Of a stretch of 64,000 bases of DNA, positions 24,167 to 51,075 are shown piece after piece. A program made the position numbers and the translations under genes. The DNA is from Ramazzottius varieornatus (taxonomy: Eukaryota > Animalia > Tardigrada), in the NCBI GenBank assembly GCA_001949185.1, contig BDGG01000005.1:372001-436000 (forward strand), read 5' to 3'. Below the pieces are notes generated by a model. It was not told where the DNA came from, searched no databases, and worked only from the letters and a program-made list of their open reading frames with translations. Numbering within the stretch: the first letter of the stretch is position 1; each line of letters opens with the position of its first letter.

Positions 24167-26219
24167 TTATGCAGCTTCGTTCTCGGCTTCATGATCTCCC
24201 TCCTCGAACTCGCCTTCATCCTCGGCGGTGGCCTCCTGGTACTGCTGGTATTCGGAGACCAGGTCGTTCATGTTAGACTCGGCCTCGGTGAACTCCATCT
24301 CGTCCATACCTTCTCCGGTGTACCAATGCAAGAAAGCCTTGCGACGGAACATGGCTACAGAAAATATACAGATTACATAGGCAAACGAAGCATGTTTCAA
24401 TATCACGACAGTCAACTGATAATAAATTTTCACCGGTAAACTGTTCGCCAATTCGCTTGAAAAGCTCTTGGATGGCCGTGCTGTTACCAATAAAGGTACC
24501 AGACATCTTCAGTCCACGAGGAGGGATATCGCAGACGGCAGTCTTGACATTGTTTGGAATCCATTCGACGAAGTAGCTGTGAAGAGAACGCTGATTAGTC
24601 ATTAGTGTGTCAGAAAGAACATTGTCAAGTTGGGGAAAGGCTGTCACGGACCTGCTGTTCTTGTTCTGGATGCTGAGCATCTGGTCGTCCACTTCCTTCA
24701 TGCTCATGCGTCCGCGGAAGATGGCGGCCACGGTCAGATAACGTCCATGTCGGGGATCGCAAGCCGCCATCATGTTCTTCGAGTCGAACATCTGTTGAGT
24801 AAGTTCAGAGACGGACAAAGCTCGGTAGGACTGGGAGCCGCGAGCCGTCAACGGAGCGAAACCAGGCATGAAGAAGTGAAGACGCGGGAAGGGGACCATG
24901 TTGACAGCCAACTTGCGAAGATCGGCGTTCAGTTGACCTAATCGGAAAGACAGAGTCAGCGGATAACCGTACGAGCGGCTGCTGTGAACATACCTGGGAA
25001 GCGGAGGCAAGTGGTGACACCGGACATGGTGGCCGATACCAAATGGTTCAGATCGCCGTAAGTTGGAGTGGTCAACTTCAGAGTACGGAAGCAAATGTCG
25101 TACAGTGCTTCATTGTCGATGCAGAAGGTCTCGTCGGTGTTCTCGACCAACTGATGAACCGACAGGGTAGCATTGTACGGTTCCACCACAGTGTCCGATA
25201 CCTAAAATGAACACCATTCAATCAAGACTATTCAATCAACTGTGCGTTCGTTTTATGTTTTCCAATTTACTTTGGGGGATGGAACGACACTGAAAGTGGT
25301 CATAATGCGGTCAGGATACTCTTCGCGAATCTTGGAAATAAGAAGTGTGCCCATGCCAGATCCGGTACCGCCACCCAAGGAATGCGTCAGTTGGAAGCCC
25401 TGCAGGCAGTCGCATCCTTCAGCCTCCTTTCGCACCACATCCAAAACAGAGTCCACCAACTCGGCTCCTTCCGTGTAATGGCCTTTGGCCCAGTTGTTTC
25501 CGGCGCCACTTTGCCCTGCAAGGGTGAAAGCCAAATGTTGTGACTAGAATCGCGCAGTTGACATGTAAACACACATAGTCGAGAGTACTCCAACGGTTGC
25601 CTCGCTTGACGCAAGCCTAATATCCATTCAAGCGTGACAAACTGAACTTCACTTACCGTAGATGAAGTTGTCAGGTCGAAAGAGCTGTCCAAATGGAGAC
25701 GACCGCACTGAATCCATCGTGCCAGGCTCCAAGTCAACCAAGATGGCGCGAGGAACATATTTGCTGCCTTAAAAAACAAACAAAAAAACATCGAACTAAT
25801 TCGAGCTTGACTACTAATAAAGTTTCAGCTTTCTCGTCAGACTCAGCTTTGCCATCTCACACCATCGAGAAACCCGAAGAACTCTTTTAACGGGTGGAAA
25901 CGAACAAAGAATGGAACCAGGTTAAGAGGATAGGGAATTTTTTACCTGATGCTTCGTTGTAGTAAACGTTGACGCGTTCTAGCTGCAGTGGGGAATCGCC
26001 AACGTAGTTTCCGGTGGGATCGATACCATGTTCGTCCGAGATGACTTCCCAGAACTGCAAAGAAAAGCTGTAGTAGCAAAACACAGCTCAAGGTCAAATC
26101 CTTCAAGCGATACTTTATCGACGCTGAACACGTTTTCTACGACAGAGATTTTCTCGACCTACCTTCGAGCCGATCTGGTTGCCGCATTGGCCGGCCTGGA
26201 GATGAACGATTTCTCTCAT
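24167..26219 (-). CDS. TUBB: Beta-tubulin A (more divergent isotype), 8 exons
   Basis: [37 protein letters not shown]-tail [16 protein letters not shown]. Confidence 0.98.
24847..25209 (-). repeat. 363-bp perfect inverted repeat, copy 1 (inside beta-tubulin A)
   Basis: Base-by-base identical to the reverse complement of 50035-50397, including a 56-bp intron. Confidence 0.95.
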
Positions 26220-27672
26220 GTTGATGCGGGGGATGATGTCCTTCAACGGAGAACTACCACAAGGTCGTTACGAAGATGTCGAGGGGTTGTCGACAACGCG
26301 GCAAAAGCAAGAAAGAAGGATCTTTCAACGTCCGAGCTACGGCAGAAATGGCACACTGACTGCTGTCTAGGCCAAAGTTTGCACTTAGCCAGTCAGATAG
26401 GAAACACCCGTATGCGTCATTCGGTGTATTACTCACAGTTGAGTCATCGAGTGGTCGGCGTATCTTAGATTGGCCCTGACCGACCACAGGCCAGCCTTGG
26501 TGGGCCGGCCTCCAGTCTATATTCCACTCCACCGACGACAGTGGAAGCAGAGAGTATAGCCCAATCTATACTCTCTGATGGAAGTGTGGTTGACATCGTC
26601 TTAAACTAAACTCTAAAGTCCGAAGTGTCCACCTGGTCAAAGAAATCGCAATTTCCCTGAAGTTTAAAATTGTCCATATATGCGTTTCCGGTTCGTATGT
26701 AGCGGAGACCTTTTCTTTCTCGTGAGAAAACAAGAAGGTCCTCTTCGGACTTCCGAATCTGTCGAAAGAACTGCGGGTTCTTGCAAGCGATGCTATCGGA
26801 CGGTTTTACTGTCCTAGACGTCTGCATCGTCTCCTCTTAACTCAGTACTTGTATATTGTAGGTCTAACCGGAAGCTGCGGGGAGTATGAAGGGGAGCGAG
26901 GACATCGTGATGCTGAAAATTCCGGAAGACTTTTTATAAGAAGACGGGCGGGTTCTTGTTTGGGTTTCACGCTGGTGCTGAGAGCAGTATTAGGTGAGTT
27001 GAATATAAAGATCGTGCATCGCACGTGGCGGCGAAGTGATGTGGCAAGTTCCACTTGCGTAATTCTGCATGTCCTTGTTTACGAGCATATTTCTGAACCG
27101 TGATGTTCTCGTGAGAACATATTCACCATGATGTTTTGTGCTAGAAATGCACTGCTGGCCGTCGTCTGGGATTGCTACCAGTATCAGGTCACTGAAGCTG
27201 CTTTCCCCTCGACGCTTTGTGCGAGTTGATAGCTGGTTCGTTTTTCCACAGATCTCATGTCGACCAAATTATCTAAATTAATTTCTTCCCTTAGTGGATT
27301 GATTTCTTCCCACTCCACCGCCGATGGATCTAAGAACGTCACCAGGAAGCGGCTCTTCACATGCAATGCTTACTCCATGCCCTATGTAAGACCTTTCCAC
27401 CCGGTAAAAGTCGCATTCGAAATCTAGAACCAGTTTCACCCAACGAAAATATGGATATGAGGATGCTAGTTGCTTGTGGAGCGTCTAGTCATATTGCGCG
27501 TGATATTGAGATACTCTACACTAGACTCTACAGTCTACACGTGAACTTCAAAGGTGGATGATGTTCTGAAAGTGTATAAAAACCTATCTGTATCACAGTA
27601 TATCAAACCTACTTTGTATCGCAGAAGCATACAATTCCATTTATTCTCGGTGTATCCTCAGTCTCATTGTTG

Positions 27673-48658: not shown

Positions 48659-49198
48659 GTAGACTTCAGTGTTGTCCCCAAAGATGCGCAGCGAACAATC
48701 TGCAAGAAAGTCAACACAGTCGTTACCGACCAGATCACTTCCAACGCAACTGTCTTCCAGATGGTGCGGTAGTTTGAGTCCCCTACGGCTTGGACAACAC
48801 TCTAGTAGTTCAGACTCCGGAGGAAGATCTCTGTCAGGAATTGGGATTCGGGAATACAGAAGAAATGTCTTGAGAAAATTAACATTATCATGTGGAACGC
48901 AAATCAACAATCAAACTCGGTCGCGGCATTGCGATTTTGGGCGGTGGAATCGTGCGACTGTAGGTGTGGAGTTGCCGACTTGGAAACCTGGAATTGCAGG
49001 CTCGAGTTCCACAGTGCCAAAACATCAGACGGCAGCTCAAGTCAAGTCTTCCCGCCATAGCAACCGCAGCGTTAGCGTTTTTTCGCTTTCCTCCTCCGGA
49101 AACGTTTTCATTCTCCTCCCAAGGCCGTACTTTTTCCTTCTGTTGTTTGTTGCTTCTTTCCGCACTGTATTTACATTTTAATTTTAAACTTATTCACC

Positions 49199-51075
49199 AT
49201 GCGCGAAATCGTCCATCTTCAGGCAGGGCAGTGTGGGAACCAGATCGGAGCTAAGGTGAGCCTCTCCCTTTGGCAAGCGTTGTTCTGCTCGAATCTGTCC
49301 TCTTCGTTAGCATTCAAGTGTGCGTTGCTTACTCGGTGCGTGGTGTTCTTCTCGTAGTTCTGGGAAGTCATCTCCGACGAGCACGGCATTGATCCCACCG
49401 GCACATACCATGGCGATTCGGATTTGCAACTGGAACGAATCAACGTCTATTACAACGAAGCGACCGGTTCGTTAATTGCGTTTGACGCCCTTGATTGTTT
49501 CAATTTCTAATGGCTTGTGTCGAATGGTTATTTTGTCCGCAGGTGGCAAGTATGTACCCCGAGCTGTGTTGGTCGATTTGGAGCCTGGCACTATGGATTC
49601 TGTGCGATCAGGCCCTTTTGGTCAGCTCTTCCGACCGGACAACTTCATCTTCGGTAAATAACGTTCGCAGTGATCGCACTCAAGTTTCAGTCCGTGTGTT
49701 TTGACCGTTTGGGGTGGAACACAGGTCAGAGCGGTGCCGGAAACAATTGGGCGAAGGGACATTACACCGAAGGAGCGGAGTTGGTCGACTCCGTCCTCGA
49801 TGTTGTTCGCAAGGAAGCGGAGAGTTGCGATTGTCTACAGGGCTTCCAACTGACGCACTCTCTAGGTGGCGGCACTGGCTCGGGTATGGGCACACTGATG
49901 ATCTCGAAGATCCGGGAGGAATATCCCGATCGCATCATGAACACTTTTAGTGTTGTGCCTTCGCCTAAGGTAAGAATAACGAGGCCAATGAGCTCTTTGT
50001 ATGAGGTGTCAGCTATCGTATGTGAGGGTTTCGGCATTTTAGGTATCGGACACTGTGGTGGAACCGTACAATGCTACCCTGTCGGTTCATCAGTTGGTCG
50101 AGAACACCGACGAGACCTTCTGCATCGACAATGAAGCACTGTACGACATTTGCTTCCGTACTCTGAAGTTGACCACTCCAACTTACGGCGATCTGAACCA
50201 TTTGGTATCGGCCACCATGTCCGGTGTCACCACTTGCCTCCGCTTCCCAGGTATGTTCACAGCAGCCGCTCGTACGGTTATCCGCTGACTCTGTCTTTCC
50301 GATTAGGTCAACTGAACGCCGATCTTCGCAAGTTGGCTGTCAACATGGTCCCCTTCCCGCGTCTTCACTTCTTCATGCCTGGTTTCGCTCCGTTGACTTC
50401 TCGTGGCTCCCAACAGTACCGCGCCTTGACGGTCCCTGAATTGACCCAGCAAATGTTCGACGCAAAGAACATGATGGCGGCTTGCGATCCTCGTCATGGC
50501 CGTTATCTGACCGTGGCCGCCATCTTCCGTGGACGCATGAGTATGAAGGAAGTTGACGAACAGCTCCTCAATATTCAGAACAAAAACAGCAGGTACGAAC
50601 TTCACTTCCTTGGATGCAGTGATGGCTTTGTGGCCTGTCTGTGTTCTAACTTCTGTCCTCGTGGAACGTTGCAGTTACTTCGTCGAATGGATTCCCAACA
50701 ACGTCAAGACCGCCGTCTGCGACATCCCTCCTCGTGGCTTGAAAATGTCGGCGACCTTCATTGGTAACAGCACGGCCATCCAAGAGTTATTCAAGCGAGT
50801 CTCCGAACAGTTTACCGGTACGATAGACAGATCTTATTCAGTCGTTACTATCAAATCCTAAATTATACTGTTTTTTCCTTCGCTTCTCAGCTATGTTCCG
50901 TCGCAAGGCTTTCTTGCATTGGTACACCGGAGAAGGTATGGACGAGATGGAGTTCACCGAGGCCGAGTCTAACATGAACGATCTGGTTTCCGAATACCAG
51001 CAGTACCAGGAGGCCACCGCCGAGGATGAAGGCGAGTTCGAGGAAGAAGGAGAGGGTGGCGAGGCCGAAGCATAA
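49199..51075 (+). CDS. TUBB: Beta-tubulin B (canonical-type isotype), 8 exons
   Basis: [19 protein letters not shown]; same intron positions as copy A; C-tail [15 protein letters not shown]. Confidence 0.98.
50035..50397 (+). repeat. 363-bp perfect inverted repeat, copy 2 (inside beta-tubulin B)
   Basis: Identical to the reverse complement of 24847-25209. Confidence 0.95.

What the first reader, a model, noticed from the sequence alone, without database searches (positions are those of the whole stretch)
24167..51075. Inverted beta-tubulin paralogues share a 363-bp 100%-identical tract including an intron: gene conversion and a potential 25-kb flip
Seen: 24847-25209 equals the reverse complement of 50035-50397 with no mismatches, covering codons ~175-274 and the 56-bp intron 50251-50306. 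Exons 1-4 differ at many synonymous sites and the other introns do not align by eye. The tract covers E198/F200 (established benzimidazole-binding residues; both copies have F167/E198/F200) and ends exactly where amino-acid divergence starts in the M-loop (TARGSQSY vs TSRGSQQY). Inference: recent ectopic gene conversion, limited by selection on isotype-specific surfaces. A crossover in the tract would invert the ~25-kb interval (8 genes) and swap promoters and N-halves onto the alternative C-tails while leaving both ORFs intact, so it could act as a tubulin isotype switch or a structural polymorphism.
Basis: partly seen in the sequence, partly recalled or inferred. Interest (0 to 1): 0.8.

Follow-up and report, generated by a model that had tools for sequence, protein, structure and literature searches.

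The report
Tardigrade tubulin twins overwrite each other
Two old, head-to-head beta-tubulin genes of a tardigrade share a 363-base stretch, intron included, that is letter-for-letter identical, most likely because one gene recently overwrote the other during DNA repair; this is a known process, and the available transcript data give no sign that the 25 kb between the genes flips as a switch.

Summary
24847-25209 is the exact reverse complement of 50035-50397 (363 bp, maximal): 8 nt of intron 4, exon 5, intron 5 and 91 nt of exon 6 (codons 175-274). It is in the reads: a DNA run gives one 363-nt contig at depth 43.6 against 21-27 for the flanks. Synonymous differences are saturated 5' of it (87/155 codons), absent in it (0/96), and reduced 3' of it (29/96; exon 8 2/39), each below all 31 outgroup tubulins. 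That points to repeated, 3'-restricted gene conversion, not one event. The host is a eutardigrade, likely Ramazzottius varieornatus (Tub2D2/Tub2D3; inferred). The switch idea is not supported: gene A carries the unusual residues on both sides of the tract, two RNA contigs run A-5' to A-3' unbroken, and B-3' contigs are as shallow as B-5' ones. Rare flips remain untested (no long reads, no sister-species DNA). The M-loop boundary fits selection but is not significant alone. Precedents: mammalian TUBG1/2, Leishmania beta-tubulins, the yeast 24-kb flip/flop region. The scan noted a similar shark alpha-tubulin pair (e1-8850861).

The parts
24167..26219 (-). Beta-tubulin gene A, 8 exons, 448 aa; the divergent isotype (likely Tub2D2-Eu)
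   Evidence: Gene model; all 7 introns spliced in contigs of X5, X12, X13; differs from the outgroup majority at 20 of 24 A/B-distinguishing sites; name by length and gene spacing only
49199..51075 (+). Beta-tubulin gene B, 8 exons, 447 aa; the canonical-like isotype (likely Tub2D3)
   Evidence: Gene model; introns 1-4 and 6 spliced in B-type contigs of X5/X6; matches the outgroup majority at 20 of 24 sites
24847..25209 (-). Identical tract, arm in gene A (8 nt intron 4, exon 5, intron 5, 91 nt exon 6; codons 175-274)
   Evidence: one 363-nt contig, depth 43.6, 0 other letters in DNA run X1
50035..50397 (+). Identical tract, arm in gene B
   Evidence: no variant position listed inside it in 4 runs; the B-3' contig of X6 leaves the shared path at the tract end (starts 50368)
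24938..24993 (-). Intron 5 of A (56 nt), identical to intron 5 of B
50251..50306 (+). Intron 5 of B (56 nt)
24201..24352 (-). Second, slightly older homogenised tract in exon 8 of A (codons 388 to about 438)
   Evidence: 2 of 39 degenerate codons differ; 31 outgroups differ at 26-73%; a third beta-tubulin of the same genome differs at 30 of 164 nt over about this stretch
50893..51044 (+). Second tract, exon 8 of B
   Evidence: (I3)
24353..24846 (-). Partly homogenised segment of A (codons 274-387, with unalignable introns 6 and 7) holding 11 amino-acid differences from B, M-loop included
   Evidence: 29 of 96 degenerate codons differ against 87 of 155 in codons 1-174 (Fisher P 8e-5); lowest of 31 outgroups 0.457
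25210..50034 (.). 24,825-bp interval that a crossover in the tract would invert: both promoters, both 5' halves and at least 8 genes (two inositol-phosphatase-family, START, RA-domain, MPLKIP, kinase, U1 zinc finger, mitochondrial L19)
   Evidence: (I1)

Best explanation
Two linked, head-to-head beta-tubulin paralogues share an identical 363-bp tract, most likely from recent DNA-to-DNA gene conversion without crossover, probably the latest of repeated conversions confined to the 3' half of the genes. Inferred mechanism: a break in one copy is repaired on the other copy 25 kb away; copying starts in a stretch of near-identical exon, runs through the short intron 5 and stops at heterology (intron 4 on one side, the M-loop codons on the other). 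Conversions survive where the two proteins are already the same (codons 175-274 and 388-438) and are likely purged where they would overwrite isotype-specific residues. Crossovers would swap promoters and N-halves between a divergent and a canonical isotype, so they are likely selected against; none has been fixed on balance. Shown: the identity, its presence in reads, the divergence gradient, the collinearity of derived residues. Inferred: the repair mechanism, the role of selection. Unresolved: donor direction.
For: Exact 363-bp identity with intron. Two-copy contig in DNA run X1: depth 43.6 against 23.2 + 21.2 for the two 3' flanks. Degenerate codons differing: 87/155, 0/96, 29/96, 2/39 for codons 1-174, 175-273, 274-387, 388-431; 31 of 79 outgroup loci with enough cover show 0.53-0.71, 0.51-0.70, 0.46-0.70, 0.26-0.73, so constraint does not explain the three 3' values. 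Six of seven introns unalignable, so the duplication is old; Tub2D2 and Tub2D3 are listed for several eutardigrade genera. Upper 95% bound on neutral divergence in the tract about 2.6%. Outgroup majority equals B at 11 of 13 sites 5' and 9 of 11 sites 3' of the tract. Conversion tracts through short introns and between opposed paralogues are on record in Caenorhabditis (PMC3966223, passages).
Against: No sister-species or second-strain DNA was found (best of 79 metagenome loci about 82% at DNA level), so the classic tree test (paralogues closer than orthologues in the tract) was not done. X1 may be the source of the assembly, and these contigs merge isolated SNPs (B's two exon-8 variants have no contig of their own), so one or two hidden differences are not excluded by letters alone. 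Selection at the boundaries is not shown: P 0.13 within codons 274-387, P 0.003 only when exon 8 is included. Why nothing 5' of intron 4 is converted is unexplained.
Confidence: 0.86

Rival explanations
1. The tract works as an inversion switch: crossovers flip the 25-kb interval often or under regulation and produce A-5'/B-3' and B-5'/A-3' chimeric tubulins.
For: Geometry allows it: inverted identical arms, same phase, both promoters inside the interval. A 24-kb flip/flop region between converted inverted repeats exists in Saccharomyces (PMC9731477).
Against: Derived residues sit in A on both sides of the tract. Contigs of X12 and X13 (1833 and 1745 nt, 0 other letters) bridge the tract from A-5' to A-3', and X12 lists no B-3' contig. 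In X6, B-3' contigs (depth 9.8-10.6) are as shallow as the B-5' contig (8.7) while A-type pieces stand at about 3,200-14,000; a flipped allele would put B-3' under A's promoter. The tool warns that contig depth cannot rank genes and the runs were found with the A region, so this last point is a hint only. The arms are 363 bp against 4.2 kb in yeast, and there is no recombinase gene among the Pfam matches of 46 ORFs tested.
Confidence: 0.03
2. Rare, unregulated flips arise as a by-product of conversion and segregate at low frequency in wild populations (compatible with the best explanation).
For: In yeast about 4% of conversions resolve as crossovers, as cited in PMC9731477. Conversion here looks recurrent.
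Against: No net flip fixed since the isotypes diverged; chimeras would change the apparently major isotype at 11 core residues plus the tail. No direct data either way: contigs cannot phase a 363-bp repeat in DNA.
Confidence: 0.1
3. Assembly or polishing artefact: one copy's sequence was written over the other.
For: X1 may be the sample behind the assembly; contigs merge isolated SNPs.
Against: A read-derived contig spans exactly 24847-25209 at about twice flank depth, with flanking contigs of both genes entering it by 30 nt; no diverged second version of the tract was laid at 85% likeness (tables partly cut). B-specific RNA contigs join the shared path at both tract ends. An independent low-depth sample (X4, depth 2) holds 50043-50316 with intron 5 and 0 other letters.
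Confidence: 0.03
4. RNA-templated conversion: reverse transcripts of one gene patch the exons of the other, which would explain the 3' bias and the untouched introns 6 and 7.
For: Homogenisation is limited to the 3' half, and introns 6 and 7 are unalignable while the exons around them are homogenised.
Against: The main tract includes all of intron 5 and 8 nt of intron 4, which a spliced template lacks; neither gene has lost an intron.
Confidence: 0.05
5. No exchange: purifying selection or a recent duplication explains the identity.
For: Codons 175-274 are the most conserved part of beta-tubulin (97% in the panel).
Against: Outgroups differ at 51-70% of degenerate codons there; the intron is identical; the rest of the pair is saturated.
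Confidence: 0.01

Closest known systems
Mammalian TUBG1/TUBG2 and BMP8A/B (Carson and Scherer 2009, PMC2720389; abstract and passages read)
   Same: Old linked paralogues with homogenised segments that include an intron; TUBG1/2 are tubulins 45 kb apart, BMP8A/B are inverted.
   Different: There the conversion is shown across many species for over 100 million years; here one genome only. TUBG1/2 are in direct orientation.
Saccharomyces flip/flop region on chromosome XIV (Salzberg et al. 2022, PMC9731477; abstract and passages read)
   Same: About 24-25 kb between inverted repeats kept alike by gene conversion.
   Different: Yeast arms are 4.2 kb and hold whole genes with promoters, so a flip changes no protein, and both orientations are observed. 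Here the arms are 363 bp inside two different isotypes, a flip would make chimeras, and only one orientation is seen.
Leishmania beta-tubulin paralogues (Jackson et al. 2006, PMC1533823; abstract read)
   Same: Beta-tubulin paralogues homogenised, perhaps by ectopic conversion, with distinct non-coding regions.
   Different: There whole coding regions are concerted and loci are on different chromosomes; here a mosaic with 24 core amino-acid differences kept.
Interlocus conversion in Caenorhabditis paralogues (act-1/act-3, col-12/col-13, hsp70; Katju and Bergthorsson 2010, PMC3966223; passages read; author names recalled)
   Same: Compact-intron animal genome, tracts that include introns (15% of detected events in one survey), direct or opposed orientation.
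   Different: Most listed pairs are adjacent; this pair has at least 8 genes between and a saturated 5' half.
Tardigrade Tub2D2-Eu and Tub2D3 isoforms (Novotna Floriancicova et al. 2023, PMC10063605; parts 1-3 of 6 and Table S1 read)
   Same: R. varieornatus entries of 448 and 447 aa, ten gene numbers apart, fit genes A and B.
   Different: The parts read do not mention linkage, orientation or conversion; sequences could not be compared (supplement cut).

Membership tests
Interlocus (ectopic) gene conversion | Segment far more alike between paralogues than the rest of the pair, beyond chance | tested here: met
   0/96 against 87/155; 0 of 100000 permutations
Interlocus (ectopic) gene conversion | Identity extends to neutral sites, so constraint is excluded | tested here: met
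   Intron 5 identical, other introns random; outgroups 51-70% different
Interlocus (ectopic) gene conversion | Both copies exist in the DNA with that sequence | tested here: met
   363-nt contig at about double depth; one or two merged SNPs not excluded
Interlocus (ectopic) gene conversion | Paralogues closer than orthologues within the tract (tree discordance) | not testable with these tools
   No tardigrade tubulin DNA among 79 loci; supplement alignment cut
Interlocus (ectopic) gene conversion | Non-reciprocal transfer with an identifiable donor | tested here: inconclusive
   Codon usage favours B by 1.8-4.8 log units only
Inverted-repeat flip/flop inversion polymorphism | Near-identical inverted arms around a unique interval | tested here: met
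   arms only 363 bp
Inverted-repeat flip/flop inversion polymorphism | Both orientations observed | tested here: inconclusive
   Only the reference phase is seen in RNA contigs; no long reads, few isolates
Inverted-repeat flip/flop inversion polymorphism | A past flip fixed in the lineage (odd number of crossovers) | tested here: not met
   A is the derived copy on both sides of the tract
Programmed inversion switch (phase variation, mating-type flip) | Dedicated recombinase or induced break and mixed orientations in a clonal population | tested here: inconclusive
   No recombinase family among 46 of 186 ORFs scanned; B-3' not raised over B-5' (depth caveat)
Tardigrade Tub2D2-Eu / Tub2D3 isoforms | Sequence clusters with the published isoform groups | not testable with these tools
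   Only length (448, 447 aa) and gene-number spacing match; neighbours' best named hits are tardigrades

The most novel reading that the evidence does not exclude
In a desiccation- and radiation-tolerant tardigrade, double-strand breaks are repaired between the two inverted tubulin genes often enough that the 25-kb interval flips in some cells or lineages, putting the strong promoter and divergent N-half on the canonical M-loop and tail: a damage-induced tubulin isotype switch.
Probability: 0.04. Interest if true: 0.8.

Novelty: new member of a known kind. Interest (0 to 1): 0.3.

Why it matters
As found, it is a clean example of a known process: old tubulin isotypes that still exchange DNA in their shared core while keeping distinct surfaces. 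It has two practical uses. Trees, dS dates, probes, guide RNAs and read counts based on codons 175-274 or exon 8 cannot tell these two genes apart. And the locus is a ready reporter for ectopic repair in a tardigrade: one orientation PCR after desiccation or irradiation would measure crossovers between paralogues. The sharp lack of conversion 5' of intron 4 is the one feature that stays unexplained.

Tried and rejected
No whole genome is held for this window, so no genome-wide count of similar tracts. Protein search with the A-specific part of exon 6 returned no named tardigrade tubulin among the 120 listed of 3442 (clusters at 90% hide them). The tardigrade tubulin alignment in the supplement of PMC10063605 is cut before the tardigrade rows, so orthologue residues were not seen; this bears on donor direction and on the isoform names. 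No listed run is on record as RNA and all are contigs; runs labelled as other organisms (X12, X13) carried the A transcript with 0 differences, so they gave no strain comparison. X12 has no B-type contig on the B region and X5 no B-3' contig listed; absence in contigs proves nothing alone. Synteny of interval genes with Hypsibius could not be read (no locus tags; the two hits lie on contigs of different length). The two inositol-phosphatase-family genes in the interval are only distantly alike (43% over 46 aa through a Hypsibius homologue), so no larger inverted duplication. Benzimidazole link: no paper holds all four terms; rejected as incidental. PMC12628991 (passages) had nothing relevant. 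The palindrome survey PMC7953838 counts 4 palindromes with 22 genes in R. varieornatus but its 5 held supplements name no genes.
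Full report
Observation. Window 24847-25209 equals the reverse complement of 50035-50397 at 363 of 363 bases, and the match cannot be extended. 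Gene models: A on the minus strand, 26219 to 24167, 448 aa; B on the plus strand, 49199 to 51075, 447 aa; eight exons each with the same intron positions, 5' ends facing inward. The tract is the last 8 nt of intron 4, exon 5 (208 nt), intron 5 (56 nt) and 91 nt of exon 6, that is codons 175-274. The proteins differ at 24 positions in codons 1-431 (13 before the tract, 11 in codons 275-382, none in the tract or in codons 383-438) and in the tail. F167, E198 and F200 are in both; their link to benzimidazoles and the position of the M-loop (about 271-286) are recalled, not from a call.

Is it real? In DNA run X1 a single contig of 363 nt covers exactly 24847-25209 with 0 other letters at depth 43.6; the A-3' and B-3' flank contigs (554 and 555 nt) stand at 23.2 and 21.2 and the A-5' contig at 26.9, each overlapping the tract by 30 nt. 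That is what two identical copies give in a word graph. Limits: X1 may be the source of the assembly, tables 3 and 8 were cut, and such contigs merge isolated SNPs (B's two exon-8 variants have no contig of their own), so one or two hidden differences are possible; a diverged second copy is not. X4, another sample at depth 2, holds 50043-50316 with the intron and no difference, and one search lists no variant inside the tract in 4 runs (10% threshold).

What organism and genes? Two interval genes have tardigrades as best named hits: mitochondrial L19 (Hypsibius exemplaris 66%, Paramacrobiotus metropolitanus 62%) and inositol monophosphatase 3 (61%, 56%). Table S1 of PMC10063605 lists R. varieornatus Tub2D2-Eu (RvY_09966, 448 aa) and Tub2D3 (RvY_09976, 447 aa), plus a third beta-tubulin of 449 aa; one search also shows a third beta-tubulin on another contig. 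So A and B are likely these two isoforms; this rests on length and spacing, not on sequence. The same table lists both isoform groups in Paramacrobiotus, Richtersius, Mesobiotus and Milnesium, and gives H. exemplaris numbers 22 apart (BV898_06814, BV898_06836), which suggests an old duplication and perhaps old linkage (inference from labels).

Divergence profile. Among codons with the same, degenerate amino acid, those that differ number 87 of 155 (codons 1-174), 0 of 96 (175-273), 29 of 96 (274-387) and 2 of 39 (388-431). The run of 96 was reached in 0 of 100000 permutations. For 31 of 79 metagenome tubulin loci with at least 80% cover of each region, the same measure against A or B ranged 0.53-0.71, 0.51-0.70, 0.46-0.70 and 0.26-0.73. 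So the 5' half is saturated, and all three 3' segments are more alike than any outgroup comparison. A third beta-tubulin of this genome differs from A at 30 of 164 nt around exon 8, where B differs at 3 of 151. Introns 1-4, 6 and 7 align no better than shuffles. This is a layered pattern: a newest tract (neutral divergence under about 2.6%, 95% bound), a slightly older one in exon 8 (about 9%), and older or patchy exchange between them. For scale, PMC7953838 gives 0.455% heterozygosity for R. varieornatus (supplement row).

Boundaries and selection. The 5' end lies in intron 4, where homology stops. The 3' end is at codon 274/275, next to the first amino-acid difference. With 11 of 40 differing codons in 274-387 non-synonymous, that adjacency alone is weak. 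Synonymous differences lie closer to amino-acid differences than expected over codons 274-431 (P 0.003) but not within 274-387 (P 0.13) or 1-174 (P 0.35). By hand, about 3 amino-acid differences would be expected in the tract (P of none about 0.04), so conversion may have erased or prevented a few. Selection against overwriting isotype residues is therefore plausible, not shown. Codon usage leans slightly to B as donor; inconclusive.

The flip. Three results are against it being fixed, common or regulated. First, the outgroup majority residue equals B's at 11 of 13 distinguishing sites before the tract and 9 of 11 after it (the panel was fetched with A-like patterns, which works against this result), so the divergent halves are still joined in A. 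Second, RNA-type contigs of X12 and X13 bridge the tract from A-5' to A-3' with 0 other letters. Third, in X6 the B-5' contig has depth 8.7 and the B-3' contigs 9.8-10.6, while A-type pieces reach about 3,200-14,000; in X5 B-5' contigs stand at 5-6 against 122-399 for A-type contigs. A flipped allele would put B-3' under A's promoter and lift it above B-5'. The tool warns that contig depth cannot rank genes and that runs were found with the A region, so the third point is a hint. Rare flips in other isolates or after DNA damage are untested.

Comparison with what is known. Conversion between old linked paralogues with introns is described for TUBG1/2 and BMP8A/B (PMC2720389), Leishmania beta-tubulins (PMC1533823) and Caenorhabditis pairs (PMC3966223). 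The closest model for the flip is the yeast 24-kb flip/flop region (PMC9731477), whose 4.2-kb arms hold whole genes, so flips are neutral by-products. I found no paper on this tardigrade tract: searches for tardigrade + tubulin + Ramazzottius, tardigrade + gene conversion (15 of 40 listed, titles and abstract starts only), the gene ids and isoform names (only PMC10063605) and tardigrade + beta-tubulin + inversion + paralogs (0 papers). The scan's notes hold nothing near this place and one similar case, a shark alpha-tubulin pair (e1-8850861; unchecked, not used as support).

Verdict. A real, apparently unreported case of recurrent 3'-restricted gene conversion between two old tardigrade beta-tubulin isotypes: a new member of a known kind, interest 0.3. 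The switch reading is not excluded at low frequency but has nothing positive for it (probability about 0.04).

Noticed in passing
window 24167-26219: The divergent isotype A, not the canonical B, appears to be the abundant transcript in the runs laid (contig depth only, a weak measure). A has changes at near-invariant M-loop sites: S280 (Q in 73 of 79 panel loci) and S287 (P in 75 of 79).
   Followed up: partly
window 2655, 13140, 32272, 33455, 36875, 44875: Six copies of a 50-nt palindromic element (60-80% alike, family D1), like a small non-autonomous transposon remnant; four lie inside the inter-tubulin interval.
   Followed up: no
window 47780-49199: Mitochondrial ribosomal protein L19 (293 aa, minus strand) and tubulin B are head-to-head with start codons about 540 bp apart, so they may share a promoter.
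   Followed up: no
window 23667-24310: An X5 contig joins the 3' end of tubulin A to a spliced plus-strand transcript (loose end at 23778 matches 23667-23696), which suggests overlapping 3' ends of convergent genes.
   Followed up: no
outside the window (X1 record 2, 32,223 nt): A third beta-tubulin elsewhere in the genome, fully diverged at synonymous sites where seen; no sign of conversion with A in the pieces listed.
   Followed up: partly
window 44977-45996 and 61449-63443: Long low-complexity repetitive ORFs on the minus strand with no Pfam match.
   Followed up: no
PMC10063605 Table S1: H. exemplaris Tub2D3 and Tub2D5 differ by one amino acid and Tub2D5 could not be amplified: a recent duplicate, a haplotype copy or another converted pair.
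   Followed up: no
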